From Candidatus Nomurabacteria bacterium (GTDB lineage Bacteria > Patescibacteriota > Minisyncoccia > Phycocordibacterales > UBA10002), in the NCBI GenBank assembly GCA_943354745.1, contig CALRDB010000002.1, forward strand, positions 3,679 through 67,678: DNA of 64,000 bases. Direction: 5' to 3'. Numbering within the stretch: the first letter of the stretch is position 1; each line of letters opens with the position of its first letter. The translations under genes were made by a program, and so were the position numbers. Below the pieces are notes generated by a model. The model did no database searches. It was not told the DNA's origin and saw only the letters and a list, made by a program, of their open reading frames with translations. Positions 11,001 to 51,982 of this stretch are shown here, piece after piece.

Positions 11001-11098
11001 ACTATACGAAAATACGAATTATACGAACATGCGAATTGCTGCGAATCCTATTCTCATTCGTAATCATTCGTAGGATTTCAATTCGTATTTTCGTATGT

Positions 11099-12190: not shown

Positions 12191-12193
12191 GAT

Positions 12194-20967: not shown

Positions 20968-21594
20968 TCAACGCTTTTGTGTGGACAAACGTTCTCGTAA
21001 TTCAGGAAAGTGACGATACATCTTCTGATTAAAGTCGTCCATGTCAGTGAATAGCTCCGCGATAAAGCCTGTCTGCCTCGCAACCTTGATATTTTCATGC
21101 TCATCATCCCAAAAGAGTGTTTCTGGTGGATGTATACCTTTCGTCGTTTCTACGTAGTTCCAAAAGCTGGCATCTTCTTTTCGAGAGCCGACATGCGCCG
21201 ATGAAAACACGGCGTCAAAATACATACCGAGACCAAACTCATTGAGGATATAGTCGGTACGATATTTTTCATTATCCGTTGCCAGAAAGGTAGCAACACC
21301 ACTCGCCCGGAGTGTCTGTATGGTCGAAAGCATTTCCTCATTACGCAAACCTTCTTTACTAAACCAAAAATAAAGAAGCTCTTCGAGAGTGCCCTTCCAC
21401 CCCCAACTACGATAGTAGCGAGCGAGTTCAATCTTTAAATCTCGTTTGCCAATAGTACAATCTCGGAATACCTCATTGAAAAATGGCGCGGTAGTTTCCT
21501 TGGTAATACCGTAGTCGGCACACAATCGATCGGTGAACCGCTTATCGCGATTAATCACCACACCGTCTCCGTCAATAATAAGATTTTTAATCAT
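20968..21594 (-). CDS. HAD-superfamily hydrolase
   Basis: N-terminal IIDGDGVV (DxD motif I); overlaps MFS stop by 4 nt. Confidence 0.55.
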   Translation of the reverse strand: MIKNLIIDGDGVVINRDKRFTDRLCADYGITKETTAPFFNEVFRDCTIGKRDLKIELARYYRSWGWKGTLEELLYFWFSKEGLRNEEMLSTIQTLRASGVATFLATDNEKYRTDYILNEFGLGMYFDAVFSSAHVGSRKEDASFWNYVETTKGIHPPETLFWDDEHENIKVARQTGFIAELFTDMDDFNQKMYRHFPELRERLSTQKR

Positions 21595-22865
21595 GTTTTA
21601 TGTCGTGCGCGGTGCGGCTTCACTGGAATAAGAGAAAATGAGACGTGCTTCTTTCCATGCTTATGGACCACAAAACGGTAGAACATCCACACAAGCAAGA
21701 CAGGAATAGCACTTATGACAATGGTCCAGGTTGGCCCCACAAAGGTGTAAGCGAATCCTGCAAGTACCGGGCCGATGGCCCATCCAAGATCCTGAAAAAG
21801 CGTAATGACCCCCGCAATCGTACCATCGTTGTCGTGTTCACGATCGAGTGAGTGTAGCCAGGACCAAAGTGAAATGCTGGCCATTTCGTCTCCCGATGTT
21901 GCAAGAAACCCAAAAAGTAAAAAGAGCCAACCGAAGTCAAAGCCAAGGAGTATACCGGATACCGCGAATAAAAGCAGACCGAAAAAGACAAGAGCTCGCT
22001 TATCACTTCTATCGGCAAGATGTCCAAAAAGGAACCCGAGCAGTACAATCGAAAAGTCGAAGATACCCAAACCAAGACTGAGTAGTCCCGCATTCGCCTG
22101 ATGAGCGATCACGAGCGGTACGACAAACCAAATAGCACCGTAGAAAATACAACCGACGAAAGAGACGAGGAGTAACATACCACTCGCTGGGTTAAGGCGT
22201 TTAAGCGCTCTAAGTGTCGTGTGAAGAAAATGGCGACGAATAAAATAATGGTGCGAAGATACTTTCTTCTCCTTGTGAACTGAAACATAATCTTCCGGAC
22301 TAAAAAAAAGAAAAAACAACGAGACGAGGAGAAGTACGAAGATGACAGATCCCATAATTTCAGGTTTTTGTGTCAGTACCAAAGGAAGCGCAATGCTTGC
22401 AAGTACCACACCGATTGACCCCGCTACATCTCGAACTGAAATGAACTTACCCGCTATGTCCTTAGGAGCATGCGAAAGTACATACGCGTCAACGCCTGGT
22501 CCAAAGAAAAGCCAGCCAAAAATACTAAAGAGTAGACTAAGAAGATAGGTTATCCTCGTAAGCCCGAATGTAAGCGTAATCGCGGCAAACAAAAAGAGAA
22601 GAGTGGTTATCTTCAAAAATCTGCGATAACCAAAGCGGTCGAGAAGATGTCCCGCTGGAACATCGAGAAGAAGCTGCACAAAGGAGCAACTTCCCATCAG
22701 GAGACCGACGACCCACAAAGGAAAAAATTGCTCACCGAGAGGTGAGATAAGGGAGTAATGCAAACTCCCTCCGAATTTAAACAACAACAAGAAAAACCAA
22801 AATGGCAAAAAGCTTAGAAGAGCGTTTGCGAGTGAGCGAGTGTTTGCTGTTGAAGTGGAAGACAT
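21591..22865 (-). CDS. MFS transporter
   Basis: 12 predicted TM helices; start taken at MSSTSTANT since upstream ORF extension overlaps tRNA-Arg. Confidence 0.7.
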   Translation of the reverse strand: MSSTSTANTRSLANALLSFLPFWFFLLLFKFGGSLHYSLISPLGEQFFPLWVVGLLMGSCSFVQLLLDVPAGHLLDRFGYRRFLKITTLLFLFAAITLTFGLTRITYLLSLLFSIFGWLFFGPGVDAYVLSHAPKDIAGKFISVRDVAGSIGVVLASIALPLVLTQKPEIMGSVIFVLLLVSLFFLFFSPEDYVSVHKEKKVSSHHYFIRRHFLHTTLRALKRLNPASGMLLLVSFVGCIFYGAIWFVVPLVIAHQANAGLLSLGLGIFDFSIVLLGFLFGHLADRSDKRALVFFGLLLFAVSGILLGFDFGWLFLLFGFLATSGDEMASISLWSWLHSLDREHDNDGTIAGVITLFQDLGWAIGPVLAGFAYTFVGPTWTIVISAIPVLLVWMFYRFVVHKHGKKHVSFSLIPVKPHRARHKT

Positions 22866-22879
22866 GATGGGCTTATGAA

Positions 22880-22954
22880 TGGTGCTCCTAGCTGGAATCG
22901 AACCAGCATCATCTCCTTCGGAGGGAGATATCCTATCCATTGAACGACAGGAGC
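22880..22954 (-). tRNA. tRNA-Arg (anticodon CCG), CCA encoded
   Basis: rc gives GCTCCTG-TC-GTTCAATGGATAGGAT-A-TCTCC/CTCCGAA/GGAGA-TGAT-GCTGGTTCGATTCCAGC-TAGGAGC-A-CCA. Confidence 0.8.
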
Positions 22955-23097
22955 GTCAGGCACCTGCCCGACACGCTTCGCTGTCGATGCGGGCGGGAGT
23001 CGGGCAGGTATCCATTGAACGACAAGTGCGCACGACTATCTTATCTCCTCAGTCGGGAAATGGGAACCTCTTTTAGTTCCGTTGTCCGACTTGCCTT

Positions 23098-26115: not shown

Positions 26116-27171
26116 TTACATCTTAATAACTTTTTCCCAAGGAAGACCTTTTTTCCCAAAATGACCATAGGCGGCAGTCTGCAAATACCACGGTTTCCTG
26201 AGGTCAAGACGTTCGATAATCGCAAGTGGCCGAAAGTCAAAATGTTTCTTCACCAATGGCGCAAGACTCTTCCCTTTCTCGTCAATCGCGTGAACCATAA
26301 GCGGATCAATGTGGCCGATAGCATACGCGACAGAAACGAGACAATCTTTCGCGTATCCGTTTGCAACCAAATTTTTCGCCACAAACCGACACATGTAAGC
26401 AGCAGAGCGGTCGACTTTGGTGAGATCTTTTCCTGAGAATGCTCCTCCTCCATGACAGATAAGTCCGCCGTAGGTATCCACCATGATTTTGCGGCCAGTG
26501 AGTCCAGCATCTGCTTCGAATCCTCCCTGTACAAAACTCCCAGTTGGATTGACAAGGACCTCGATTCCTTGAAGCGACCCTATAATCGGAGCAATGATTT
26601 TCTTCGTAACGACATCGGTCACCTCGTCGTGCCCGACACTCTTGTCGTGCTGAGTAGAGACAAGCGCTGTGGCAATCTTGTTATCAAGAATGGTGATTTG
26701 GGTCTTACCATCGGGCTTGAGCCATTTTATTTCCTTTTTCTCTCGCGCCTCCTGAAGTCTTCGAGCCATCTTGTGTACTAACACAACACCCTTCGGTAAA
26801 AATTCGGGCGTTTCCGTCGTGGCAAAGCCGTACATAATACCTTGGTCGCCCGCACCTCCTGTGTTAACTCCTTGTGCGATATCAGGTGACTGCTCCACGA
26901 TAAAAACCTGGATATCTAACGGTTTGGTATAGCCAATACTTCTATACACCTGTGCAGCGATTTTCTTGTAATCCACCTTTGCTTTAGTAGTAACTTCTCC
27001 GCCGAGTACGAGATGTCCGTGGCTTCCAAACGTTTCTACGGCAACTCGACTCATAGGATCCTGCCTCATGCATTCGTCTAAAATCGCGTCTGAAATTTGG
27101 TCACAGACCTTATCTGGATGGCCATTGGTAACACTCTCTACGGTGTACGTCTTACGATCATGTATATGCAT
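26116..27171 (-). CDS. metK: S-adenosylmethionine synthetase
   Basis: GHPDKVCDQISDAILD, GGAGDQGIMYGFA motifs. Confidence 0.9.
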   Translation of the reverse strand: MHIHDRKTYTVESVTNGHPDKVCDQISDAILDECMRQDPMSRVAVETFGSHGHLVLGGEVTTKAKVDYKKIAAQVYRSIGYTKPLDIQVFIVEQSPDIAQGVNTGGAGDQGIMYGFATTETPEFLPKGVVLVHKMARRLQEAREKKEIKWLKPDGKTQITILDNKIATALVSTQHDKSVGHDEVTDVVTKKIIAPIIGSLQGIEVLVNPTGSFVQGGFEADAGLTGRKIMVDTYGGLICHGGGAFSGKDLTKVDRSAAYMCRFVAKNLVANGYAKDCLVSVAYAIGHIDPLMVHAIDEKGKSLAPLVKKHFDFRPLAIIERLDLRKPWYLQTAAYGHFGKKGLPWEKVIKM

Positions 27172-27256: not shown

Positions 27257-27400
27257 TATTAAAAATTAAAATCCTTCCGTCCAGGAAGAATTTGACATTG
27301 TATCTTCCCTCGCGGGCTAGATGGAGCACCGCGTTCTCACAAAACCGGTTGCCGGAGGATCCTTGAGCTAGTACTCTCCCCTCTCTCTTGATATATATTC
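27257..27400 (-). promoter_or_regulatory. SAM-I (S-box) riboswitch with intrinsic terminator in metK leader
   Basis: Minus-strand RNA AUCAAGAGAGAGGGGAGAGUACUAGCUCAAGGAUCCUCCGGCAACC…GGUGCUCCAUCUAGCCCGCGAGGGAAGAUA matches SAM-I conserved blocks (AUCAAGAGAGG, GGCAACC, GGUGC..A); hairpin CUUCCUGGACGGAAG followed by U-rich tract. Confidence 0.6.
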
Positions 27401-40016: not shown

Positions 40017-40115
40017 GCACGTAGTATAGCAAATGCGAAAAAACCGGCTCTTCACCGGTTTTTTCTTATTCCGTGTCAGTTCCGCGTTGGCTTCGTTCTG
40101 TCTCGTTCCGTGATT

Positions 40116-41315
40116 TTAATAGCCCTGCAACTTTTTCGACTTCTTATGCTGGCGGATTTTTTCGTGAGCTTTCGCTTCGATTTGGCGGATACGTTCGCGA
40201 GTCACGCCGAATTTTTGTCCCACTTCTTCGAGTGTGTGCGTGACACCGTCGAGGAGGCCATGCCGAAGCTCTAGAATCTTTCGCTCTTTTTCTGAAAGGT
40301 CGCCGAGAATTTCCTTCACTTGGTCTCCGAGGATACGGCGGGACGATTCCTGGTCGGGAGAAAGTATCTTGTCATCATGTAAAAAGTCTCCGAGTGTTGA
40401 CTTGCCGTCGTCGCCCTCATCGCCGACTGGCGATTCCAGCGAAACGGTATCTTGGTCAATTTTTTCAATCTGGTACACCTTGTCCGTCTCAATACCCATC
40501 TCGATACCGATTTCTTCCGGAAGCGGGTCGCGGCCGAGATCTTGTGAAAGTCGTCTCACGACTTGCTTGTACTTAGCGATAGTCTCCACCATATGGACCG
40601 GCACGCGAATAGTGCGGGATTGATCGGCGAGTGCGCGAGTAATCGCTTGGCGGATCCACCACGTAGCATACGTTGAAAATTTATACCCCTTGGTCCAGTC
40701 GAATTTGTCGACAGCCTTAAAGAGACCTAAGTTCCCTTCTTGAATGAGATCGAGGAGTGTGAGGTCAGGCGAGCGTCCCACGTATTTTTTAGCAATCGAA
40801 ACAACCAAACGGAGGTTCGCTCGAGCAAGAAGATTTTTGGCTTCCATGTCTCCCGCCTGAATGCGCTTCGCGAGCTCTTTTTCGTCTTTGGCGTTGATGA
40901 GGGGGTATTGTCCGATTTCCTTGAGGTACATCTGAATCGAATCATAGGATCCTTCACTACTCTTGCCGAGGTAGACATTTTTCTTTCCATGCGGTTCCGC
41001 GACTTCTTTCTCAAGCATTCCACCACCTTCGAGTACGTCAATACCCGCTGTTTGGAATTTGGAGTAAAGTTCATCGAGGAACATGATGTCCTCTTCGATG
41101 GTAGGAAATTCTTTCAAAATGTCGTTATAGGTGATGAACCCGCGATTCTTACCCTTTGCGACAAGACGATCAGCACGTATATCACGCTCCTTACCTTTAG
41201 CCATTTTCTCGACAGGTTTTGATGCAACCTTACTCTTTATAGGCTTCTTTTTTGGAGCAACCTTTGCTTTAATGGCTTTTTTCTTCTTTTTGAGGTCTTT
41301 TTTCGCTTTTGACAT
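40116..41315 (-). CDS. rpoD: RNA polymerase sigma factor RpoD (sigma-70)
   Basis: Region 2 [17 protein letters not shown]…[10 protein letters not shown]; region 4; ORF-track start is TTG at 41387, ATG at 41315. Confidence 0.88.
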
Positions 41316-41387: not shown

Positions 41388-42010
41388 AGAACCTGGGGCT
41401 GCTTAAAAAATGTAAGAAAAAAGCGACTTGAGATGCTACCCAAGTCGCTCGACACAATGCGGTACACTACTCGACCCGACCCAACTCCGCAAAACCATGA
41501 GTGACTAAACCGCAATCGCCAAACGCTCGCGAACGAGCGTTTGGCCCCAAGCAAAGGACGTGATACCGCACCGGACACCACTCAACACGACCGCGGATTG
41601 ACATAATTGCCATGCCTCCGTAAACGAAAGCACGGCCCCGTACCGTAGAACTCAGTGCAGAACAACTGGACACGAAGCCCGAGCCCACCATGCTGTGCCA
41701 TACCTAAATGTGTCAGCCGATTCGAAAATCGACTGACACCCGAACGCTACAAATGAACAGAGGACAAAACAAGACCCTGCAAAACAATACGGCAATCGCA
41801 CTCCAACCGAAGTCGGAGTGCTCCAAGCTGTAACGCTCCGGACCCTGCAACACTTGACGATACCGGACATGACCGCAGAATACACCACCGAAATAAACGG
41901 GAGGTGAAATCCACCTCCCGTTCCCAGACAGGACACAAACGTACAATGCATAACCCTACTGAACCTTACCGAACTGGACCGAAATATTCCGCACCTGCTT
42001 CCAAGTTTGG
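41388..42010. other. CA-skewed hairpin-dense noncoding block A
   Basis: + strand about 63% A+C; perfect hairpins e.g. ccaaacgctcgcgaacgagcgtttgg, cgggaggtgaaatccacctcccg, gtgtcagccgattcgaaaatcgactgacac; ORF track shows only short overlapping two-strand ORFs. Confidence 0.7.
41415..41450 (-). terminator. Rho-independent terminator (minus-strand sense) immediately upstream of rpoD
   Basis: + strand gaaaaaagcgacttgagatgctacccaagtcgc; minus strand gives 8-bp stem followed by U6. Confidence 0.6.
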
Positions 42011-42017
42011 ACCCGGA

Positions 42018-42659
42018 CTATTCACCTGCATATCCTTTCGGTTGCTCCGTCCACTGCCAGCTCACTGCCTCGAACTTCCCGTACGCGCCCCGTTGCTCGG
42101 CCGAGAAGAGACCTATCCCGATATCGCGCCCCGCACTGCCGACGAGCCTCTGGATAATCTTCTCATTAAGCGGCGCCGAGAATGAGATGAGCGCCTCACA
42201 TGACCAGTCGTCAAACTGGGGGCAACGAACGATGCCCATCTCGCGTGAGTTCGGCCTCGCGTGACGATTGCGGGAGTACACACTCCAACCGGAAGTGCTC
42301 GAGAGTATGAGATATCCTCCGATGATGCAGTATTGACTCACCTGATCCACGAAGTGGCCACTATGCCTATCCTGATACGGCCATGCCGCCATGCGAACCG
42401 CGTGCTTCAGCCACCTGCCTGGCACCGCGATACACCCACTGCGAGTGTCGCGGACAAGCAAGTCAGCTAAAGGTTGCTTTGAGATCTTGATGATCTGTTC
42501 ACGCCTGGTATGGTCCGTTATCGGATGCATAAGAAGCGGTGTGACTCCCCGTAGGTGAACGAGGAGGTATTTCTTTGATATCGGTGCCGGTAGCTTCATA
42601 ACGGAGCTCCGAACCGCGTTGGGAACTGGCATTTCTGCCATAACTGTTTTTGTGTTCAT
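42018..42659 (-). CDS. Hypothetical protein (orphan ORF embedded in noncoding island)
   Basis: 213-aa ORF with normal base composition flanked by CA-skewed DNA; no recognised domain. Confidence 0.45.
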   Translation of the reverse strand: MNTKTVMAEMPVPNAVRSSVMKLPAPISKKYLLVHLRGVTPLLMHPITDHTRREQIIKISKQPLADLLVRDTRSGCIAVPGRWLKHAVRMAAWPYQDRHSGHFVDQVSQYCIIGGYLILSSTSGWSVYSRNRHARPNSREMGIVRCPQFDDWSCEALISFSAPLNEKIIQRLVGSAGRDIGIGLFSAEQRGAYGKFEAVSWQWTEQPKGYAGE

Positions 42660-43639
42660 AAATCAATGATCTGTCCAAAACCAACATGCAGAATAACACG
42701 TTTATATAAATACGTCAACTTTCGTATAAAAAGGCGCCATCCGAAGCCGGACAGCGCCATATGATCCAAACACCGGCGAGCATTGCAACGCGATACTATT
42801 CAGAACGCTAACTAACACAAGAGCAATTTCCCGCTCCGATGTAGCATCGGAGCGGGACCCGCAACAGAAGTAACCGCACTCCGGAATACCTTGCGATACA
42901 GAGCCTAGCCCCGCCGGACCGAAATTGCCACCCGTCTTCGAAAAAACGGGTGGCCACGGACCGTACCCGGTTCTACCCGACAGGACATTAGAGTACACAA
43001 CAAGAACCAACACCACCAGAATTTCCTGCCAGCCGTAACCGGCTGACAGGACCCGGACGCTACTCGAGAGTTCAGGACAGGACCTGACTGGACAGAAACG
43101 CGCGTAACCGTAATTCCAGGCCTCTGCGTGCAGAGACCTGGTCCGTGCAAAACAGCGGAATGCACTGGCGGACAGAACAGTATCGAACCGAACCGTACTA
43201 TAGGCTAACAGGAACTTAATTCCCCAAACTCCCTCATCGAGAGTTTGGGTCCGAGCTTCACGGGACATTGCGACACGATGCGACTGCTAGACGCATCTTT
43301 CCAGAAATTCCTATCCTCCCGAGAGAGGTAGGATCCGAACAAAAAAATCTTCTGACGCACAAGACCAGACCTGACTGTAACTGAGACGGCACAAACGCAA
43401 CTGTCGAGTCCTTGTAGTAAGGACTCGACCCTGACCATGCACAACTCCACAACGCCAGACCGAACGGGACAGGGACTAAGCATACTTTTGCGCAATTTCC
43501 TGTCCGTTCTAACGAATGAACAGGACCCACACTCAACCTCACCCAACAGAACATTTGAGAGCGACGACGCAGAATACCTTACCATAGTGAACAGTTACGC
43601 CGAAGCGTACCTGCTGTTTTTCAATGCTCAAATGCTAAC

Positions 43640-43702
43640 TGCAAAGTAACACGAAAATCTATTTTAGGCAAGAAAAAGGCGTCCCGAACGAATCGAGACG
43701 CC
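43640..43702 (-). promoter_or_regulatory. Terminator (43672-43702) plus conserved 20-nt motif TGCAAAGTAACACGAAAAT (43640-43658), module copy 1
   Basis: Minus strand: GGCGUCUCGAUUCGUUCGGGACGCC-UUUUUCUU followed by UAGAUUUUCGUGUUACUUUGCA. Confidence 0.55.
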
Positions 43703-45276
43703 AGCCATAAAGAAGACAAGCCCTGGGCACGGTGCGGAACAATACCTCACCGAGCATAACCTTAATTTGAGTGCTCCGACACATCGAAGCACTCACCCTA
43801 CCGCGGACTTGCATACGAGAAGAAACCCAACCTTGCTAGTGAGTACCGAACCCAAAAGAACCACTGTGTGCGACACCGTATCTACCGATGCCTGGCAAGG
43901 CAGGCATCGGTCCTACACCCTACCGCTCTCTACCCCATGGTACCTAACACCACTGAACACTACATCATCGAAACGAAGTCTGAACGCCGATTGAGAATCG
44001 GCGTTCACCCGTACCGAACCATACCTTGCAACAATCCACAGAACTGAAACGCGCAGCAGATGACAGGACCGAAATTTGTCGTCCCGATTTGTTCATCGGG
44101 ACGACATCCGTACTCTGCGACACCGGTCATTACCTGACAGGTGCACACGCTACGTTACAGGACCATAATGTGCTATCTCGATGAAGCATCGAGATAGCAT
44201 CCGCACCACTATTGGCCGGACAATAAGATACTCTGCAACACCCGAGAATTGAGATCCATAATTTCACCGTCCCAATAGTACATCGGGACGGTGACCCAAC
44301 AAAACCATACCTGACAGGACACCGCGATACTGCAGAACACAGGAGAGGACACTGACTTACCGTAACTTCCCAGACCCTCGCAAGCGAAGGTCTGGGACCC
44401 AACCATACCGGATAACGCCGGACAACGCGCCACTCTACTACACCTGAACGCAATCGCCCATCCCGATCTTAATCGGAATGGGCTCCGAGAAAAACCGTAC
44501 CGTAGAATACACTGCCTTAACACACGAAACGGTGACATACGGAACCGCATTATTCTGCTTCAACCGAAGTCAAAGCAGAACCCACACCGGACATGAATTC
44601 ACCGTACAACACCCTACCCCACTTAAGATGACAAGAGAGCGATAGGTCGCCCTGACCGAAACCAGAGCAACCCCCTACAGAACAGCGCATCGCCACAGGA
44701 TTGCACGCGCTACATAACCAAGCCGGAGCGCAAAGGCTGTCCCGATCGAAATCGGGACGGTCCCGAAGCAAACGGCACGTTTGCGCACACTTGATTACAG
44801 AACTTGAATGCAACATGCTGAACTGAGGCACTGCGTATATACCGCTCCGACCGAAGTCGAAGCGGCTTCGCACGCTACGCTACCGTGCGGGACACAAACA
44901 GACGTTACACCACTCTACGTAACCGCGATACATCACGCGCTCACTGAGCGCGTGATGCCCCCCGCCGCACCAAGCGACACTAAACCCCGACGGACAGAGG
45001 CTATCCTGAACGTGCCACAACTGTCATGCACCGTGAGATGCATGACATCAGCGACAAGCATTACCAGGCCTGACAGAGACACGCCTTGCAGTACGTTTCC
45101 TAGCCTGACCTAATCCTGCGAAACCAGAATTTACCACCCCGACCAGAGTCGGGGTGGTACCCGAGGAAAGCATTAGCTGACCTGACATAAAGACGGAAAG
45201 CCCCACCTATGCTTACTGGGCCGAACGCTACCAAATTTAACTCATTTTCAGTTGACAATGAGCTACTAACGAATTT

Positions 45277-45356
45277 CAAAGTAACACGAAAATAGAGATA
45301 ACGCAAGATTCGCAATCCTGCAAGAAAAAAGGCGTTTTGAGAAAACTCAAGACGCC
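45277..45356 (-). promoter_or_regulatory. Terminator (45325-45356) plus conserved motif CAAAGTAACACGAAAAT (45277-45293), module copy 2; terminates helicase gene
   Basis: Minus strand: GGCGUCUUGAGUUUUCUCAAAACGCC-UUUUUUCUU then …CUAUUUUCGUGUUACUUUG. Confidence 0.55.
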
Positions 45357-45378
45357 GTCGATTGACCTGCAATGGAGA

Positions 45379-47214
45379 TTACTTTCCAAACATCCGCTTC
45401 ACCTCCGCTACCGCCTCGGCGAAGCTTTTGCCACCGTCGTAGTATTGGCGAAGCCCTTCAGAGAGCCGTGGCCAAACGATCTTCCGAAACTGCTGTGAGA
45501 TAAATATGATAGCCCCTTTATCCTTCGGACTCCGAATGTTCCGCCCCATGTGCTGAAGTGACTTGATCCCCACGCGCCATTGTTCAAGTTTGAAATGAGT
45601 GCTTTCACCCCACTTCCTCACCTCGAACACACTTGCTGGATCATCCGGCCTGCTGTATCCAGGACGAAGATCGAAGATGACCGGCGCGAGGCCGTCAGGA
45701 AGATCGAGCCCTTGCCCGAAGTTCGTTTCCGTACCGACCAGAGTCATACCGAGACCATCTTTGAACTCCTGCGCGGCAGTCCGAGCCATTCGTTCACCGC
45801 CATAGCTCACAGTGTCGAGACCCAGATTCGTCGAGTGAACCAAGAATTGATCACGCTCATCGTTTGAGACGACAATGACCAGACTCCGAATCCCCATGTC
45901 CGCCCACTCCTTGCACGCCTTGACCATGCTCTTGAGCGCTTTCTTCAGATCATCGGGCTTCCGGTTCTTCGTTGAGAGGTCCGGCGTATCGGACGGCATG
46001 AAGATCTTGGCGTTCTGTGGAGGAAAGCTTGACGGAAGCGAGAGAAACTCTCCTTCTTCCATTCCGGTTTCCCAACCGAACGTGTCTTTATCCCCGACAG
46101 TAGCCGAGAAGGCCGCGTACTCTTCGCCCAGTATTGAGCGGATGATAGGCGCCACTGTGTGTGCCTTAATCACCAGCTTATGCTGAACGCGCTTACCCTC
46201 CGCGAGTTCCTGCTGATGAAAGGCGTAGCTGTAGTTCATCCTTTTCCGTTTCAACGTGTCGAGCGAATACTCGAACGAGTGAATGTACCGGCGGATATCC
46301 CGCACCAGCACCTCCACTTGGCGAAGTGTTAGGGCCTCTTCCACTTCATCGACGGCCCCTTCACCTATTGCTTTGATGAGCTTATCTCCCAGCCTCGCCG
46401 GATTAATCGCTTCAAGCAGACCCATGAGCTCGAGGATTTCTCCATCCTCAATGATGGTCGGCTTCCACGCAGCCTTCTTCTTAACGATGTCAATCATGCG
46501 TTTCTGAAACTTCGCGAGAAGATCCGTCTCATCGACCTCAAGTCTCTCGAGTAGTTTGACGGCTCGACCGAGGTGATAGTCACTAATCTCGTAAGAGAGC
46601 GTGCGACGAACCACGTCGCCCATTAGGTGCGCTTCGTCAATGACGAGCACCTTCGGCTTCTCCCACCGCTTCGTGAAAAGCTGAGAGAAGAGATAATACG
46701 CAAAGGTGCAGAGCACGATTGGCGCGTTCATAGCCTTGTGGGTGAAGTGATAGTACTGACAGCGCTCCGCGTCCTTCTCGTGCGTCTCCCCCGTTTTGAG
46801 GTTGACGCGATGCGGACAGTTCCGCAGGAAAGAGCAGGCGATTTCATCCGCGCGATATTGAACATCTTCCGGCTTGGTCTCAAGCGAGAATCGTTCATCC
46901 GCGTTGTCCTCGTAGTAGTAGCACGGGAAATCATGTTTACCCACCACGATGGCGAGGTCGAGATATTCCCGATAAATCTGCTGGAGGATGGTCTTGTTCG
47001 GCGTGATGAGAAACAGCGGTTTCTTGCCCGCGTTTGCCGCGGCCTTCAGAATGGCATACTCGACGGCAGTCTTGCCGTGGCCGGTCGGCATCTCAATGAT
47101 GGACTTCGGATGCTGTGCCCAGAATTCGAGAACCTGCCGCTGTTGCGGGCGCATAACGCTGTGCTTCTCTGACGGAAATGCCGAACAGAGTTCGGCAAAG
47201 GTTTGTCTGCTCAT
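45379..47214 (-). CDS. DinG/XPD (Rad3)-family ATP-dependent DNA helicase with Fe-S domain
   Basis: Walker A EMPTGHGKT, DEAH box VIDEAHLM, four Cys between motifs I and II; ORF-track start TTG at 47256, ATG at 47214. Confidence 0.75.
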   Translation of the reverse strand: MSRQTFAELCSAFPSEKHSVMRPQQRQVLEFWAQHPKSIIEMPTGHGKTAVEYAILKAAANAGKKPLFLITPNKTILQQIYREYLDLAIVVGKHDFPCYYYEDNADERFSLETKPEDVQYRADEIACSFLRNCPHRVNLKTGETHEKDAERCQYYHFTHKAMNAPIVLCTFAYYLFSQLFTKRWEKPKVLVIDEAHLMGDVVRRTLSYEISDYHLGRAVKLLERLEVDETDLLAKFQKRMIDIVKKKAAWKPTIIEDGEILELMGLLEAINPARLGDKLIKAIGEGAVDEVEEALTLRQVEVLVRDIRRYIHSFEYSLDTLKRKRMNYSYAFHQQELAEGKRVQHKLVIKAHTVAPIIRSILGEEYAAFSATVGDKDTFGWETGMEEGEFLSLPSSFPPQNAKIFMPSDTPDLSTKNRKPDDLKKALKSMVKACKEWADMGIRSLVIVVSNDERDQFLVHSTNLGLDTVSYGGERMARTAAQEFKDGLGMTLVGTETNFGQGLDLPDGLAPVIFDLRPGYSRPDDPASVFEVRKWGESTHFKLEQWRVGIKSLQHMGRNIRSPKDKGAIIFISQQFRKIVWPRLSEGLRQYYDGGKSFAEAVAEVKRMFGK

Positions 47215-47356
47215 AATCAGTCTTCGGATGTTTGATGTTTGGTGTTCCCTTGTCAAAATCCACTCCCGAAGGAGTGAACTGGAGTCTTAGCCCCGTGCTA
47301 ATCCTCGACGCACACTAACAGGATTTCTCGTCTACGTCAAGGTTTGGTTACGGGTC

Positions 47357-47385
47357 TGTCATTCCCTTGGAAAAGGGAATTCAGT
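47357..47385 (+). repeat. Hairpin repeat family copy f
   Basis: ctgtcattcccttggaaaagggaattcagtg. Confidence 0.65.
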
Positions 47386-48380
47386 GCTGTAGTCCAAATA
47401 TAAAAAGCGCCTCGACGAATCGAGACGCTTATTCCTGACCCAACAAAAGAGCACCTCACATTGGATGAGAATACCCGAACTGACAATACCCGACCGAGAA
47501 GGACCAAAATTGAAGCGTTCCCGAAAACGAGAACGCTTCCCCGCACAGGACACTACCTGACTGCACTGAAACCAACCACTCCGAAATTGAAGCGTCCCGA
47601 CGAATCGAGACGCCTCATCCGGACTCGAGCATTCACAAACGAACAGGACGGAACCTGACTGAACGACGCCGCATGCCACCTCAATCGGCATTCCGCTTTA
47701 GAAACGGAATACCCCCGTACCTTACCTTTGAAATGAGAGGCAAAATTCGAGCATCCCGACTAATTCTCGGGATGCTCGCCTGACAAAGGTGTACCATGAT
47801 TGAGCGAGCCGGCGAAAACCGACTCGCTCCCGAACAGAACTCTACGTCACGCCTCCGAAACAAACGACTGCCTACGGGGCGATACAAAACAGGTGCATAC
47901 GAAGACTTGCCGTAATTGCCGAACACCTTCGAAAAGGCGCTCGGCTCCACACCGAACCTGTTCTCGCAGGACACTACAACAGAAATGTTGGCTTGAGCTA
48001 ACTCATGCAAGCCACACGGCACATCTGATGACCTCAACTGAGCGAGCCGGCCGAAACCGACTCACCCCCGAACGTAAACAGACAGCTCTGCACGGGACAA
48101 TAGCGCACCCAACCTAAACCGACACCACCTGACCATAATTACCAAGCTCCTACGAACAAGAGCTTGGTTCCCGAGCGTACCAAGAAGCGCGAAACAGAAC
48201 AGTTGACTGCGAAACATGACTTTAGAGAACCACAATTGTCGAATCCGTGCTCGCACGGATTCGACCCGAGGAATGACTCAAACAAACATACTGGACTGAA
48301 CGGAACTTTACACTTGTGTGCCCCAAAATAGGTGACCGCAATCACTGCGACAACGAATTGTCGAAGTACGAAATACCGAG

Positions 48381-48432
48381 TGCAAAGTAACACAGAAATA
48401 TAAAAACGGCAAGTCTCGTGAAAGACCTGCCG
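48381..48432 (-). promoter_or_regulatory. Terminator (48403-48432) plus conserved motif TGCAAAGTAACACAGAAAT (48381-48399), module copy 3
   Basis: Minus strand: GGCAGGUCUUUCACGAGACUUGCC-GUUUUUAUAUUUCUGUGUUACUUUGCA. Confidence 0.55.
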
Positions 48433-49135
48433 TATGACTACATTACCTGACCTTACCCTACCCAACCGTACCTTGCCTCAAAGAACAAGACCTAACCGTG
48501 CCACATTCTCCCGCCCCTCTTGCGAATGGCGGGACCCGTGCCATAATCGACCTTACTGAACCTTACCTAAGAGGAACCGGCGGAAGAATCCTCTGCCGAA
48601 ACTTGACGAGCACTTTCGGAAAAGTGCTCGTCCCATGCTGCAGTTCAGATTACTACGCGTCACCTGACCGCGCGAGACGCTACGTTACCGCACTGTAGCG
48701 AGCCGATTGTTATCGGCCCGCTCCCGAACAAAACCCGACACCACGTTAGCCCGCAGAACTGAACCAAGCTTGAGCGTATTAGTGGACAGCTCCGCTAGGA
48801 GCTGTCCAACCGATACCTTTTCATAACGCACTGAACAGTGGATTACAAAACGGGACACTGCACCACCGGACCGTAATCAGTATCCCGACTTTCAGCGGGA
48901 TACTCCGGTACCGAACAGGACAGGGCCATACTTAGGAACACTCAAAATGAGCACACCTGACTTGACCGTACCGCAATTGCCAAACTTCTGCGAACAGAGG
49001 TTTGGCTCCACACAGCGCCTGTGTTCACAGGACTACAGGGTACAAAACCTGACGATTGAGTACGACAGGATACGAGACCGAAATGGTCGGCGGAAATGCT
49101 TTTCCGCCGACACCGACAACAGACTGAACTCTGTC

Positions 49136-49167
49136 AAAAAAAAGCGGAGGTACCGAAGCACCTCCAC
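49136..49167 (-). terminator. Strong rho-independent terminator (minus sense) after hypothetical gene
   Basis: Minus strand GCGGAGGUGCUUCGGUACCUCCGC followed by U8. Confidence 0.7.
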
Positions 49168-49188
49168 ATGACTGTCACTTCTTCGTCG

Positions 49189-50010
49189 TTACTCGGTAGC
49201 TACCGGAGCCGGACTGAGTCCCGCCACGCGTTTTTCGAGAACCTTACTCGACATTCGGCCGTTGTCCTCCGTCTTCGGAGCATGCTTCTCAGCCTGGCCG
49301 ACGTACTTGATTTCAATGTCGTCATTGATCGGTTCGATCTTGATTACTTCGAACTTCGAAACACGAAACTGTCCGTAGGAACCGGGCTTGTTTGGGGCCG
49401 AACCGCGCCAGTCGCCGAGACCGGATTTTTCGCCGGCCTTCTGCCAGAGCTGGAGCACGGTGTCGTCAGAGAAGTCAGGGTCCTTGAAGGTGAACTCAAT
49501 CTCGCACGCCCACTTCGGAATTAAAGGGCGGACCGTACGATTGGACCCCTTGGTCTGTTGGTTGACGGTACGACCCGCGTGAACTTCCCACGGAGTGTTC
49601 GCTTTCGCCTCCTCCTCCCCCATCGGCAACGCCTCGGTCGCAACTTCCCCGTTCGCATCGAGCCCCTTGAAGGCATAGAAGCGTTTGGTGAAGGTCACGA
49701 TGCTGGGGATTTCGGTTCCGCCACCTGACTTGGTGATGGCCGACGTGCGCTTCCCTTTCTTGACGGAGATGTGCTTCCCGCCGTTACAGAGGGTGGCCAT
49801 GAGGTTGTCCATTGGCCAGCCCATTTCACCGTTCGGTCCGCGATAGAGCTTGGCCTGAGCAACCACAACATCTTGGATGTCGCCGCGCTTGGGCGTTGCC
49901 GCTTTTTTGCCGCCGATCTCTTCAAGTGTACCGAGAAGCATGGGGTTTTGGATTGCTGCGGTTACTGAATCCAGTAACATCCGCACTGTCTTCTGCTGTC
50001 TTTCTGCCAT
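49189..50010 (-). CDS. Hypothetical protein (273 aa)
   Basis: Long ORF with balanced composition directly downstream of dnaG; no recognised family. Confidence 0.5.
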   Translation of the reverse strand: MAERQQKTVRMLLDSVTAAIQNPMLLGTLEEIGGKKAATPKRGDIQDVVVAQAKLYRGPNGEMGWPMDNLMATLCNGGKHISVKKGKRTSAITKSGGGTEIPSIVTFTKRFYAFKGLDANGEVATEALPMGEEEAKANTPWEVHAGRTVNQQTKGSNRTVRPLIPKWACEIEFTFKDPDFSDDTVLQLWQKAGEKSGLGDWRGSAPNKPGSYGQFRVSKFEVIKIEPINDDIEIKYVGQAEKHAPKTEDNGRMSSKVLEKRVAGLSPAPVATE

Positions 50011-50116
50011 AATTACCCTTACTTAATGCACCGAATCGCCGAAGCGAGCCGGTTTTGTTATGTAGTTGTCGAAGAGCTATAGATTCGGGCCGAAAAGCCT
50101 TGTCTGTAAGCCCTTG

Positions 50117-50137
50117 TTCACAGTGTGTGAACAGTGC
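50117..50137. promoter_or_regulatory. Palindromic candidate operator TGTTCACA-gtg-TGTGAACA upstream of the 273-aa hypothetical gene
   Basis: Perfect 8-bp inverted repeat with 3-nt spacer about 110 nt upstream of start codon. Confidence 0.3.
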
Positions 50138-50227
50138 CAAAAGCACACGCGATTAGCTCGACCAAACTAACAGAGATACGAAATTTTGTCAATAGTACGT
50201 AGTAAAGCAGGGTACCGTGTAAACGAG

Positions 50228-51982
50228 TTAAGAAGTCGTAGTAAACCGGTGGGATTTGAGGGCTCCCAATTTTTGGGTGAGTTCTTTACACTTTGCCAGC
50301 AGGGCTTGCGTCTCTTCTTTATTCCCGTCGTGCTCTGATTTGGCCAGTGTGTCCATTGTCTCAGAAAGAAGCATCGTAATATGCTCTTGTTCCAAATGAC
50401 GAAGAAGCTCCTCTTCCTCACTTACACCGGGCGAGGTATCCCCGTAGAGCGCTTCGGCTTCAAGCAAGAGAACATCAGCAAGTGCTTTATAGTGCTCTAC
50501 TTTTTTATCGAATACCTCCTTTTCAAAGATGCGGAGAAGTGCAGTCTGTAACCGCTCGAACAACAACGTATTCTTCTGCGACTCCGAAAGAAGATAAATA
50601 CTAAACACCCTCCGTTCAAGTGTATTCGAACGAACCGGTGCGGTAGCTTTACGTAATTCAGGTATTTCTTTTTCTCCAGCGACAGCCGGTACTTTTTTAA
50701 ACGCCTCCCAGAGCGCATCTTCCCGAAGACCGCTTTTCTCGGCGATTACTTTTATAAAATGGGATTGCTCAACAGGAGAAGTGAGAAGGCGGAGAAGCGG
50801 AAGTAGCGTCTTCTCAATCGCGAGCGCACGTTCCCTTCCCTCCTTGGAAGCATTGATAAGGTTAAGAAGAAGAAAATCAATAACGTGCTTTGATTCTGTT
50901 ACCGCCCTGTCCCATTCCTTTGGCTCCTTCAAAATAAGTTCAGCGGGATCTTTGCCTCCCCCGATCGCAATAACCTTCACATTCATACCAAGGGCGAGCG
51001 CCAGTTTTATCGCACGCTCGCTTGCTCGCACACCCGCACTATCCGCATCAAACGAAAGCAAGAGATTTTCGGACAGTCTTTTCAGACGCACAAGTTGTTG
51101 TTCGGTGAGTGCTGTCCCCGAAGATGCGACAGCATTCTCATGACCAGCTTGATGCACCATAAGAAGGTCCACTTGTCCTTCAACCAGTATCGCCGCGTCC
51201 TTTTGTCGTATCACGAGTTTCGCGCGGTCAAATCCATACAGGACTTCGGACTTATTGAAGAGCACGGTCTCGGGGCTGTTGATATATTTGCCTGTCTTTC
51301 CATCATCAAGTCTGGGGAGAATACGTCCTGAAAATGCGATAACTCGTCCCGCACTATCCCGAATCGGAAACATAATCCTCCCCCGGAAAGTATCATAGTA
51401 TTTCTTAGGACCTGACCCTGTGTGCCCTACAGAATCGGTTTGGTTGGCAATTTTAATCAAGCCGACCTTTCCCATTTCTTCCGGTGTAAATTTTTCCCGA
51501 GTGAGATAGTCGAATAGTTGCCTCCACTCCGCGGGGGCAAATCCTACTCGCCAGTCTTGTAGCGTTTTTTGGGTGAGACCTCTTCCGTCTATGTACACCT
51601 TCGCTTCAGCTGTAGCCCGCAATGTTTCTTCATAAAATCTCGTCGCTTTTTCGAGACAGAGATACAACCGTGCGTATTCGCTCTGTACCTTTGGATCAAG
51701 CTTAGTCAGGGTGACTCCCGCACGTTGCGCGAGCACCCGTAAAGCACCAATAAAGTCGAGTCCTTCAAACTCCTGCACGAACGTGAAAATATCCCCCTTT
51801 GCCTGACACCCGAAACAGTAATAGGAGTTGCGAGCAGGCGAGACAAAGAACGACGGCGACTTCTCATTGTGGAATGGGCATTTAGCCTTATAGGAAGTTC
51901 CTGCACGCTCAAGCTTTAGGTACGATCCAACCACATCGGCGATACCTAATCTTTCTTTAATTTGTTCAACCGGAGTGGACAT
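50228..51982 (-). CDS. dnaG: DNA primase
   Basis: Zinc-ribbon CPFHNEKSPSF…CFGC; TOPRIM domain; 584 aa. Confidence 0.9.
   Translation of the reverse strand: MSTPVEQIKERLGIADVVGSYLKLERAGTSYKAKCPFHNEKSPSFFVSPARNSYYCFGCQAKGDIFTFVQEFEGLDFIGALRVLAQRAGVTLTKLDPKVQSEYARLYLCLEKATRFYEETLRATAEAKVYIDGRGLTQKTLQDWRVGFAPAEWRQLFDYLTREKFTPEEMGKVGLIKIANQTDSVGHTGSGPKKYYDTFRGRIMFPIRDSAGRVIAFSGRILPRLDDGKTGKYINSPETVLFNKSEVLYGFDRAKLVIRQKDAAILVEGQVDLLMVHQAGHENAVASSGTALTEQQLVRLKRLSENLLLSFDADSAGVRASERAIKLALALGMNVKVIAIGGGKDPAELILKEPKEWDRAVTESKHVIDFLLLNLINASKEGRERALAIEKTLLPLLRLLTSPVEQSHFIKVIAEKSGLREDALWEAFKKVPAVAGEKEIPELRKATAPVRSNTLERRVFSIYLLSESQKNTLLFERLQTALLRIFEKEVFDKKVEHYKALADVLLLEAEALYGDTSPGVSEEEELLRHLEQEHITMLLSETMDTLAKSEHDGNKEETQALLAKCKELTQKLGALKSHRFTTTS

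What the first reader, a model, noticed from the sequence alone, without database searches (positions are those of the whole stretch)
42018..43640. Orphan 213-aa ORF sits inside a hairpin-rich transcript with a ~1-kb structured leader
The terminator+motif module at 43640-43702 suggests a minus-strand transcript that traverses ~1 kb of GU-rich hairpins before reaching ORF 42659-42018. It then continues through ~550 nt more hairpins to the terminator at 41415-41450 just upstream of rpoD. The ORF has normal composition and no recognisable domain. This is either a heavily riboregulated gene or cargo of the inserted element.
Basis: inference. Interest (0 to 1): 0.55.

Follow-up and report, generated by a model that had tools for sequence, protein, structure and literature searches.

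The report
VIPR RNA-guided system, not a leader
The "orphan" gene and its hairpin-rich surroundings are a VIPR system, a CRISPR-like RNA-guided DNA-recognition system first described in 2026, here in an unusual form with two guide-binding proteins, a helicase and about 47 guide RNAs, inserted into the chromosome of a tiny uncultured bacterium.

Summary
The 213-aa ORF is real. It belongs to the Vipr family of minimal RAMP (Cas7-like) proteins. A family profile matches the solved SUSP1 Vipr protein at E=1.5e-21, and the AlphaFold model (pLDDT 91.5) resembles Csm3/Cas7.

The GU-rich "hairpins" are not a leader. They are five arrays of about 47 vrRNA units. Each unit is a 12-bp hairpin, then A-AUU, then about 13 pentamers of (G)GY-NN. 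G and Y are conserved and NN is fully variable. Period-5 z-scores are 8-16.

A terminator and a conserved promoter module lie between the upstream 0.9-kb array and the ORF, so the "1-kb leader" is predicted to be a separate transcript. The ~600-nt downstream array appears co-transcribed with the ORF.

The 8.8-kb island also holds a second, canonical Vipr paralog (273 aa) and a DinG-like helicase. It is inserted between dnaG and rpoD of a Candidatus Taylorbacteria genome; relatives have the empty site. Four distinct related loci in other Patescibacteria share the cassette.

ORF213 lacks the three GGY-contact residues that the 273-aa paralog keeps. This suggests a specialised role at unit boundaries (inference). 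No targets were found.

It is a known kind (2026 preprints) in a probably new variant.

The parts
41388..50227 (-). Whole inserted island (VIPR locus) between dnaG (50228-51982) and rpoD (40116-41315/41387)
   Evidence: GC is 52-57% against 45-48% in the flanks. Candidatus Taylorbacteria relatives have dnaG directly followed by rpoD, with a gap of 110-346 nt.
49189..50010 (-). vipr paralog A (273 aa; 263 aa if it starts at M11). Canonical Vipr with thumb 'VRP' and G-loop 'GLGDWR'
   Evidence: hhalign of its family (A5) against the ORF213 family (A4) gives prob 99.9%, E=3.4e-37. Profile A5 hits the SUSP1 Vipr protein 36pp_D at E=1.6e-6 across the GDWRP loop. Orthologues are found in L001, L007 and L009.
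48406..49143 (-). vrRNA array A (~7-8 units), ending in terminator 48433-48406. Its own promoter was not identified; terminator 49167-49144 lies upstream
   Evidence: Period-5 G signal z=11.8; unit parse; terminators.
48371..48413 (-). Promoter module TTGCCG-17-(TG)TACTTT for array B
   Evidence: Member of the four-copy direct-repeat family D4; read on the minus strand.
47402..48370 (-). vrRNA array B (~9-10 units), ending in terminator 47433-47402
   Evidence: Period-5 z=9.0; unit parse; terminator.
45379..47256 (-). DinG-like SF2 helicase (vap). Likely start is ATG 47214, giving 611 aa. Walker A TGHGKT, DEAH box, four invariant Cys (FeS-type). Promoter-like TTGACG-17-TAGTGT at ~47338-47310
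   Evidence: PADLOC typeIV_DinG PDLC01439 E=1.1e-41 over 36-614. Pfam ResIII, DEAD, DEAD_2 and Helicase_C_2. 56% identity to the L001 helicase, and 40-43% to those of the other Patescibacteria loci L006-L009. Gene callers give 611 aa.
45265..45307 (-). Promoter module TTGCGT-17-(TG)TACTTT for array C, just after the DinG terminator 45356-45331
   Evidence: D4 family; hairpin plus U-run; sequence.
43678..45264 (-). vrRNA array C (~16 units), ending in terminator 43702-43678
   Evidence: Period-5 z=15.0; unit parse; terminator.
43630..43672 (-).
   Evidence: D4 family reference copy; sequence.
42733..43629 (-). vrRNA array D (~9 units). This is the supposed '1-kb leader'. It ends in terminator 42758-42733
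   Evidence: Period-5 z=11.0 and no period-3 signal; unit parse; terminator; folding z=-7.6.
42677..42719 (-). Promoter of ORF213: TTGACG-17-(TG)TATTCT
   Evidence: Promoter scan hit 42718-42690; D4 family member; same arrangement in L001.
42018..42659 (-). ORF213, a divergent Vipr paralog B. Probable true start is ATG 42599 (M21, 193 aa) with GGAG 7 nt upstream
   Evidence: Family profile against PDB 36pp_D 'SUSP1 Vipr protein' gives E=1.5e-21 over the full length. AF2 pLDDT 91.5. Foldseek to Csm3, type VII Cas7 and Cmr4 at E~3e-8. 38% identity to P0002. Thumb reads 'RCP' and G-loop reads 'GIGLFS' instead of 'RP' and 'G[DS][FWY]RP'. The family consensus starts at residue ~29, and a 193-aa gene call exists.
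41421..42017 (-). vrRNA array E (~6 units), starting at the ORF213 stop codon and ending in terminator 41450-41421. Apparently co-transcribed with ORF213
   Evidence: Period-5 z=7.9; unit parse; no promoter or terminator between the stop codon and 41450.

Best explanation
The region is a VIPR (Viral Interference Programmable Repeat) locus, an RNA-guided DNA-recognition system related to CRISPR class 1 effectors but without CRISPR arrays or adaptation genes.

Shown here:
- Two Vipr-family RAMP proteins (ORF273 and ORF213) and a DinG-like helicase lie on one strand.
- They are separated by five arrays totalling about 47 units.
- Each unit is a 12-bp, tetraloop hairpin of variable sequence, then A, then a U-rich first slot (AUU), then about 13 pentamers. 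In each pentamer position 2 is G (73%), position 3 is a pyrimidine (93%), and positions 4-5 are unconstrained (entropy ~2 bits). The tract ends in GG directly before the next hairpin.
- Arrays are bounded by conserved promoter modules and intrinsic terminators.

Inferred from the published SUSP1 VIPR work:
- The arrays are transcribed and cut or trimmed into ~95-100-nt vrRNAs.
- The canonical paralog ORF273 keeps the thumb Arg and the G-loop Asp-Trp-Arg that hold the GGY bases. It polymerises one protomer per pentamer, flips out GGY and presents the NN dinucleotides.
- The NN dinucleotides pair with double-stranded DNA, skipping every third target base. That gives about 26 specified bases over about 39 bp.
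- The DinG-like helicase acts as the accessory (vap) effector on the bound target, as DinG does in type IV-A CRISPR.

My own inference concerns ORF213. It has lost all three of those GGY-contact residues in every orthologue. I propose it is a specialised subunit that recognises the non-GGY unit boundary (hairpin plus AUU). It would cap or nucleate the filament, or help process the array, in the manner of Cas5 or Cas6.

The island is horizontally acquired and sits in a Candidatus Taylorbacteria chromosome, so it probably serves host defence against phages or other mobile elements.
For: Protein family: the profile of ORF213+P0002 finds 417 cluster representatives. The 86-sequence profile hits PDB 36pp_D 'SUSP1 Vipr protein' at E=1.5e-21 over residues 1-192 of 202. 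AF2 gives pLDDT 91.5. Foldseek top hits are Csm3, type VII Cas7 and Cmr4. ORF273 and ORF213 families align by hhalign at prob 99.9%.

vrRNA code: period-5 G power has z=7.9-15.0 in all five noncoding stretches and about 0 in the ORFs. The register is fixed to the hairpin 3' end for 13 repeats. The same grammar appears in L001 and, as NGYNN, in L007, L008 and L009.

Hairpins: 43 observed against 1.3 expected. All 12 stem pairs covary among 25 aligned units.

Transcription signals.

Cassette conservation: the same gene order with different flanks occurs in L001, L007 and L009; L006 and L008 were fetched through the helicase only.

Insertion: empty sites in relatives.

Helicase: PADLOC type IV DinG model at E=1e-41.

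Residue logic: SUSP1 H17, R138, D177, W178 and R179 contact GGY, and D177A or R138A abolish silencing (paper 10.64898/2026.04.26.720927). ORF273 keeps R, D, W and R. The ORF213 clade has C/A, L, F and S/H/T at those positions, while 61 of 86 family members keep both arginines.

VIPR definition, vrRNA architecture and the helicase- and nuclease-bearing types: paper 10.64898/2026.04.26.720920. No self-target in the window.
Against: No expression or processing data exist for this organism, so promoters, terminators, unit boundaries and mature vrRNA ends are predictions.

The first G of 'GGY' is only 42% G here, and many slots are degenerate. Some units may therefore be non-functional.

No natural target was found. 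Four guides with exact 18-base cores gave no IMG/VR hit. Guides searched with 14-, 16- and 20-base cores gave only chance-level extensions. That search was shallow: 8 of ~47 guides, exact cores only.

The 1-nt-skip rule was established for type II VIPR and may differ here. The AF2 model of ORF273 was poor (pLDDT 50.9), so its fold rests on profile comparison only. The proposed role of ORF213 at the unit boundary is untested. I could not see the paper's figures or data tables to assign a VIPR type.
Confidence: 0.88

Rival explanations
1. One reading: one long minus-strand mRNA in which a ~1-kb structured GU-rich leader riboregulates translation or termination of the 213-aa gene.
For: The stretch is upstream, on the same strand, and highly structured. 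Terminator read-through cannot be excluded from sequence alone.
Against: A terminator at 42758-42733 and a promoter at 42718-42690 lie between the stretch and the ORF, and the arrangement is conserved in L001. The same kind of sequence also lies downstream of the ORF and around the other two genes. The 5-nt periodic code has free NN positions. Rfam finds no cis-regulatory family.
Confidence: 0.04
2. A degenerate or novel type IV CRISPR-Cas system: DinG plus two Cas7/Cas5-like RAMPs, with CRISPR arrays whose repeats have diverged to structure-only hairpins and whose 'spacers' are the tracts between them.
For: The helicase matches the PADLOC 'CAS-IV-A associated' DinG model best (E=1e-41). The RAMP fold is closest to Cas7. 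The layout of hairpin, short conserved motif and ~65-nt variable tract resembles repeat hairpin, 5' handle and spacer.
Against: No repeat family with near-identical copies exists. The tracts are not free sequence but a strict period-5 G-Y scaffold, which acquired spacers would not have. There is no Cas1, Cas2, Csf1 or Cas6, and no PADLOC or NCBIfam Cas hit for either RAMP. NCBIfam cas_csf4 scores 24.9 bits against a cut-off of 400. The RAMPs match Vipr by sequence.
Confidence: 0.05
3. The GU-rich stretches are decayed or non-functional repeat DNA (or structural DNA hairpins), and the ORF is an unrelated hitch-hiking gene.
For: Many pentamer slots are degenerate. No targets were found. Both strands fold well.
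Against: The grammar is conserved across loci whose proteins are only 38-56% identical: hairpin geometry, U-rich first slot, G-Y register and free NN. The hairpin stems covary. All three ORFs are intact, and promoter and terminator modules are conserved. The G-Y periodicity is strand-specific and on the coding strand.
Confidence: 0.03

Closest known systems
VIPR systems, type II (Escherichia phage SUSP1, Pseudomonas fulva prophage); bioRxiv 10.64898/2026.04.26.720920 and 10.64898/2026.04.26.720927; PDB 36pp
   Same: A small single-RRM RAMP protein with G-loop and thumb. Guide RNAs of ~100 nt built from 9-16 pentamers with conserved GGY and hypervariable NN. Guides are encoded in the intergenic DNA flanking vipr, both upstream and in arrays downstream. 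There is no CRISPR array or adaptation module, and an accessory DNA-acting gene is present.
   Different: Here there are two Vipr paralogs, not one. The accessory gene is a 611-625-aa DinG-like helicase rather than a small DNA-binding protein. There are about 47 guide units in five arrays, against 4 in SUSP1. Units are delimited by a sequence-variable 12-bp hairpin plus AUU instead of an invariant pseudoknotted 3' tail. The first G of GGY is relaxed. The locus is in a Patescibacteria chromosome, not a phage.
VIPR types III-V (said to encode nucleases or helicases; types III and V said to be enriched in defence islands)
   Same: Cellular location, an enzymatic accessory gene, and 'related consensus' repeats (NNNGG, YNNNG or NNNNG), as described in the text of the discovery preprint.
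   Different: I could not see the figures or data tables, so I cannot say whether a DinG plus two-Vipr cassette with hairpin-delimited arrays is one of these types. The paper counts 670 Vipr proteins in 667 systems and calls loci 'typically two genes'. This suggests two-Vipr systems are rare or absent in its set.
Type IV-A CRISPR-Cas (Csf1-Csf2-Csf3-Cas6/Csf5 plus DinG/Csf4)
   Same: A RAMP filament on a guide RNA coupled to a DinG-family helicase. The helicase is most similar to a type IV-A-associated DinG model. From background knowledge, interference there is non-nucleolytic and DinG-dependent.
   Different: No CRISPR array, Cas6 or Csf1. The RAMPs are Vipr-type with a single RRM. The guide is a gapped pentamer code rather than a contiguous spacer.
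Class 1 backbone and cap division of labour (Cas7 with Cas5, or Cas6 at the repeat hairpin)
   Same: There are two paralogous RAMPs. One keeps the repeat-reading residues. The other is altered exactly at those residues, and the RNA has a distinct hairpin-plus-handle element at each unit boundary.
   Different: The functional split is inferred only from residue substitutions and RNA grammar. ORF213 is not a sequence or profile match to the Cas5 or Cas6 families, and its fold matches are Cas7-like.

Membership tests
VIPR system | Vipr protein: a minimal RAMP (single RRM core, glycine-rich loop, thumb) homologous to characterised Vipr | tested here: met
   Profile A4 against PDB 36pp_D SUSP1 Vipr gives E=1.5e-21 over the full length. 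AF2 pLDDT 91.5 with a beta-alpha-beta core. Foldseek Cas7/Csm3 hits at prob 1.0. ORF273 is also a member.
VIPR system | vrRNAs: tandem pentamer repeats (>=4, typically 9-16) with conserved GGY (or a related consensus) alternating with hypervariable NN, in intergenic DNA flanking vipr | tested here: met
   Period-5 z=8-15 in the window. There are 11-18 pentamers per unit. Position 2 is G at 0.73, position 3 is Y at 0.93, and positions 4-5 have entropy 1.99 and 1.97 bits. Position 1 is G at only 0.42, which is the 'related consensus'.
VIPR system | A structurally conserved element capping the variable tract (3' tail, or pseudoknot in type II) | tested here: inconclusive
   Each unit boundary has a conserved-geometry 12-bp hairpin with tetraloop, then A-AUU. 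Its sequence is variable, no pseudoknot was sought, and whether it is a 5' or 3' element of the mature RNA is unknown.
VIPR system | No CRISPR array and no adaptation genes; a minimal locus with an accessory (vap) gene acting on DNA | tested here: met
   There are no near-identical repeat families. The island has only three credible ORFs. The accessory gene is a DinG-like helicase.
VIPR system | Conservation of GGY-contact residues (SUSP1 H17, R138, D177, W178, R179) | tested here: inconclusive
   ORF273 keeps R, D, W and R, with N at the H17 column, which is a common family alternative. ORF213 keeps the His (H45) but has C, L, F and S at the other four positions. The feature is met for the locus but not for ORF213 itself.
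VIPR system | vrRNAs are expressed, co-purify with Vipr, and direct dsDNA binding by the 1-nt-skip rule | not testable with these tools
   This needs sRNA-seq, pull-down and binding assays.
VIPR system | Natural targets in phages or MGEs under the 1-nt-skip rule; no self-targets | tested here: inconclusive
   No self-target in the window: the best NN match is 0.58-0.81, the same as under wrong skip rules. Eight guides searched in IMG/VR or metagenomes with exact cores gave none or chance-level extension.
CRISPR-Cas type IV-A | CRISPR array of near-identical direct repeats with unique spacers | tested here: not met
   The repeat finder found only loose families at 60-85% identity. The hairpin stems all differ.
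CRISPR-Cas type IV-A | Csf1, Csf2(Cas7), Csf3(Cas5) and Cas6/Csf5 proteins | tested here: not met
   Neither RAMP gave a PADLOC or NCBIfam hit.
CRISPR-Cas type IV-A | DinG/Csf4 helicase | tested here: inconclusive
   PADLOC 'typeIV_DinG, CAS-IV-A associated' hits at E=1.1e-41 over the full length. NCBIfam cas_csf4 scores only 24.9 bits against a cut-off of 400.
Cis-regulatory structured leader (riboswitch, attenuator) | Continuous transcript from leader into ORF; a known leader family or a single regulatory terminator/antiterminator | tested here: not met
   A terminator plus promoter lies between them. No Rfam match at the gathering threshold or at E<=1.

The most novel reading that the evidence does not exclude
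This Patescibacteria cassette is a VIPR lineage in which the ancestral RAMP has duplicated and specialised. ORF273 would be a Cas7-like backbone that reads GGY. ORF213 would be a Cas5/Cas6-like subunit that reads the hairpin-AUU unit boundary. The pair has become coupled to a DinG helicase and to long hairpin-punctuated guide arrays. That would make it a living intermediate between single-protein VIPR and class 1 (type IV-like) CRISPR effector complexes, not covered by the seven published VIPR types.
Probability: 0.25. Interest if true: 0.8.

Novelty: new variant of a known kind. Interest (0 to 1): 0.6.

Why it matters
VIPR was reported only in 2026 preprints. It is proposed there as the ancestor of CRISPR RAMP effectors and as a very small programmable DNA-binding platform.

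This locus shows the system in an ultra-small-genome, uncultured bacterium (Candidatus Taylorbacteria), where about 14% of a 64-kb window is devoted to it. It carries roughly ten times more guides than the phage prototype.

Its architecture is two diverged Vipr paralogs, a type IV-like DinG helicase, and structure-only 'repeat' hairpins. The VIPR authors postulate RAMP duplication and specialisation, and coupling to enzymatic effectors, on the path to class 1 CRISPR. This locus shows both.

It gives a concrete, testable case for how a filament-forming RAMP acquires a cap or processing partner, and for how guide arrays can be punctuated without identical repeats.

There is also a practical point. 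Public MAG annotations call spurious genes inside these arrays and leave both RAMPs as 'hypothetical'.

Tried and rejected
- Pfam, NCBIfam and PADLOC scans of ORF213, ORF273 and 86 family members found no family.
- A single-sequence phmmer of ORF213 against the PDB found nothing. Only the family profile reached SUSP1 Vipr.
- Rfam at the gathering threshold and at E<=1 over the island found no riboswitch, hammerhead or other family. The two weak sRNA hits are far below their cut-offs. These arrays are therefore not the hammerhead-interspersed kind.
[quoted passage not shown] Four IMG/VR scans with exact 18-base cores gave 0 hits. One 14-base core gave >119 hits, of which the best full-guide match was 22/28, which is chance. 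Two 16-base cores gave 3 and 25 hits with chance-level extensions. One 20-base core in the metagenome collection gave 2 hits with chance-level extensions.
- A search for the helicase in IMG/VR viral contigs found none, though the method has limited sensitivity.
- AF2 of ORF273 with a 4-sequence alignment gave pLDDT 50.9, which is unusable, so no fold search was done.
- Cluster look-up for names or taxonomy returned no names. Taxonomy was obtained from RpoB homologues instead.
- Same-species contigs L003-L005 are 99.99-100% identical to the window, so they give no information on strain-level guide turnover.
- I considered integron attC sites, REP/BIME elements and protein-sponge RNAs. I rejected them once the period-5 code and the Vipr homology were found.
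Full report
OBSERVATION. The ORF at 42018-42659 (-) exists. It lies in an 8.8-kb stretch (41388-50227) whose GC content is 52-57%, against 45-48% in the flanks. All credible genes in this stretch are on the minus strand:
- ORF273 (49189-50010).
- A 611-625-aa helicase (45379-47214/47256).
- ORF213.

Between and after them lie about 5 kb of non-coding sequence that is G+U-rich on the minus strand (AT skew up to +0.41). Hairpins are far above chance. There are 43 perfect stems of >=10 bp in 4,969 nt, against 1.3+-1.3 in dinucleotide shuffles, 17 on the opposite strand and 1 in 7,590 nt of coding DNA. Modal spacing is 90-103 nt. The 898-nt stretch upstream of the ORF folds with z=-7.6. The physical observation therefore holds.

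TRANSCRIPT ARCHITECTURE. The '1-kb leader' does not hold.
- Directly upstream of ORF213 is an 11-bp, 8-GC hairpin followed by UUUUU (42758-42733). Next comes TTGACG-17-(TG)TATTCT (42718-42690).
- This promoter belongs to a four-copy module family (42677, 43630, 45265, 48371). On the minus strand the modules read TTGNNN-17-TG-TACTTT/TATTCT, and each sits just after a terminator.
- The 38%-identical homologue in locus L001 has the same terminator-then-promoter arrangement (9043-9071, then TTGACG-17-TATTAT at 9090-9118, before the ORF at 9161).
- By sequence signals the upstream stretch (43629-42733) is therefore its own transcription unit.
- Downstream, no terminator or promoter separates the stop codon from the 41450-41421 terminator.
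- All of this is prediction. Read-through cannot be excluded without RNA data.

THE PROTEIN.
- Word-indexed search found only the protein itself and one 38%-identical protein. That protein sits in a syntenic cassette with different flanking genes: a 331-aa ORF, a 613-aa helicase and a 185-aa ORF.
- An exhaustive profile search found 417 cluster representatives at E<=1e-3, mostly 175-250 aa.
- None of 86 aligned members hits Pfam.
- The profile hits one solved structure, 36pp_D 'SUSP1 Vipr protein', at E=1.5e-21 over essentially its full length.
- The AlphaFold2 model is confident (pLDDT 91.5). Foldseek places it with Csm3, type VII Cas7 and Cmr4 (E~3e-8, prob 1.0).
- Two 2026 preprints define this family. 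Vipr is a minimal RAMP that polymerises on vrRNAs made of 9-16 YNNGG pentamers. It sequesters each GGY and presents NN for pairing to dsDNA, skipping every third target base.

THE RNA. The non-coding stretches carry exactly this signature.
- Local Fourier power of G at period 5 has z=7.9-15.0 in all five stretches. It is absent from the ORFs, which show period 3.
- I anchored 48 non-terminator hairpins at their 3' ends. The downstream consensus is A-A-U-U-N-Y-G-G-U. After that, G recurs at +7, +12 ... +67 with U one base later, giving 13 repeats in fixed register.
- Parsed as pentamers, position 1 is G 0.42 / U 0.33. Position 2 is G 0.73. Position 3 is pyrimidine 0.93. Positions 4-5 have entropy 1.99 and 1.97 bits.
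- The first slot after each hairpin is AUU rather than GGU (27, 27 and 33 of 36 units). Each tract ends in GG immediately before the next hairpin (G invariant in alignment A6).
- The hairpins share geometry (mostly 12 bp plus a tetraloop) but not sequence. In 25 aligned units every one of the 12 pairs shows compensatory changes. These units were selected as hairpins, so the 94% pairing is partly by construction.
- I count about 47 units: arrays A ~7-8, B ~9-10, C ~16, D ~9 and E ~6.
- Rfam finds no hammerhead or other family.

SECOND RAMP AND HELICASE.
- The ORF273 family aligns with the ORF213 family at hhalign prob 99.9%, E=3.4e-37. Its profile hits SUSP1 Vipr across the G-loop (E=1.6e-6).
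- The structure paper names H17, R138 (thumb), D177, W178 and R179 (G-loop) as the GGY contacts. D177A and R138A abolish function.
- ORF273 and its orthologues keep 'VRP...W' and 'GLGDWR'.
- ORF213 and all its orthologues have 'RCP' (or 'AP' in the L007/L009-type RAMP-B relatives) and 'GIGLF[S/H/T]'. That is C/A, L, F and S/H/T at those four positions.
- By contrast, 61 of 86 family members keep both arginines.
- ORF273 is therefore the canonical GGY reader, and ORF213 is a paralog altered exactly at the RNA-reading residues.
- The RNA has a distinct non-GGY element (hairpin plus AUU) once per unit. My inference is that ORF213 recognises this boundary as a cap, nucleator or processing factor. 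This is not tested.
- The helicase has Walker A, DEAH and four invariant cysteines, and Pfam ResIII, DEAD_2 and Helicase_C_2 domains. It matches a PADLOC 'type IV-A associated DinG' model over its full length (E=1.1e-41). It does not reach the NCBIfam Csf4 cut-off.

DISTRIBUTION AND MOBILITY.
- The helicase recovered four more loci: three Candidatus Saccharibacteria MAG contigs and one contig recorded only as an uncultured bacterium.
- Of these, L007 and L009 show the order RAMP-A, helicase, RAMP-B.
- L007, L008 and L009 carry the same RNA grammar with a relaxed NGYNN pentamer. L001 also has it, with UUC as the first slot.
- Flanking genes differ in every locus examined.
- RpoB places the window in Candidatus Taylorbacteria (90-92% identity).
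- In relatives, dnaG is followed directly by rpoD with a gap of 110-346 nt. BLAST shows collinear dnaG and rpoD with the island missing. The island is therefore an insertion into the dnaG-rpoD pair.
- No relative of the helicase was found in IMG/VR.
- No phage or integrase genes are in the island.

TARGETS.
- Under the published 1-nt-skip rule no guide matches the window itself better than under wrong skip rules.
- Eight guides were searched remotely with exact cores and gave nothing above chance.
- This is a shallow test and leaves function and targets open.

ORF START. The family consensus begins near residue 29 of the 213-aa reading. AF2 shows no structure before residue 29. ATG 42599 (M21) has GGAG 7 nt upstream, and a 193-aa gene call exists. 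The real protein is probably 193 aa.

COMPARISON AND NOVELTY.
- The locus meets the defining sequence-level features of VIPR: a Vipr protein, a GGY/NN pentamer code flanking vipr, no CRISPR array, and a DNA-acting accessory gene.
- It fails those of type IV CRISPR-Cas except for the helicase resemblance.
- The preprint text mentions helicase- or nuclease-bearing types III-V and relaxed repeat consensuses. [quoted passage not shown]
- I could not see its figures or data tables. I therefore cannot say whether the two-Vipr, DinG, hairpin-delimited architecture already has a type number.
- I class it as a new variant of a known kind. It may be simply a new member.

Noticed in passing
window 42702-43268 (188 aa), 43205-43585 (126 aa); L001 8618-8914 and 9849-10091: ORFs inside the vrRNA arrays are called as genes in public MAG annotations, for example the 188-aa gene in L003-L005. 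They lie in sequence with period-5, not period-3, structure and have no Pfam hit, so they are almost certainly spurious.
   Followed up: partly
L003 and L005 contig ends, corresponding to window ~43916-43923: Two independent assemblies of the same population break inside array C. This suggests the quasi-repetitive guide arrays fragment metagenome assemblies and could cause VIPR loci to be under-reported.
   Followed up: no
L007 2588-3214 and 5824-6237: In a Saccharibacteria cassette, DUF3800 genes (Pfam E=2e-20 and 4e-7) occupy both intergenic positions, between RAMP-A and the helicase and between the helicase and RAMP-B. They sit among the guide units. Whether DUF3800 is a further accessory gene or a secondary insertion is unknown.
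   Followed up: partly
window 27297-27397 (-): A SAM riboswitch just reaches the Rfam gathering score (45.0 against 44.4 bits). It lies directly upstream of metK (26116-27171, S-AdoMet synthetase domains). This is an ordinary arrangement.
   Followed up: yes
window 47402-47620 and 43678-43702: The terminator hairpins of arrays B and C and an internal unit hairpin share nearly the same stem sequence, GGCGTCTCGATTCG.. (families D19 and D20). This is unlike the otherwise all-different unit hairpins. It may reflect a recent duplication of an array end.
   Followed up: no
L129 21094-22722 versus window 40055-40116: Relatives carry a LexA/S24-N6_N4 methyltransferase fusion gene and a 189-200-aa ORF between rpoD and the UvrD/PD-(D/E)XK helicase gene. 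These are absent from the window. The neighbourhood of the dnaG-rpoD pair seems to be a hot spot for insertions.
   Followed up: no
window 11001-13000 and 22001-23000: Other stretches have strong plus-strand A>T skew (0.26-0.30). They coincide with long minus-strand ORFs (11099-13252, 21591-22940), not with non-coding arrays. They are probably U-rich membrane-protein genes, but this was not checked for period-5 signal.
   Followed up: no
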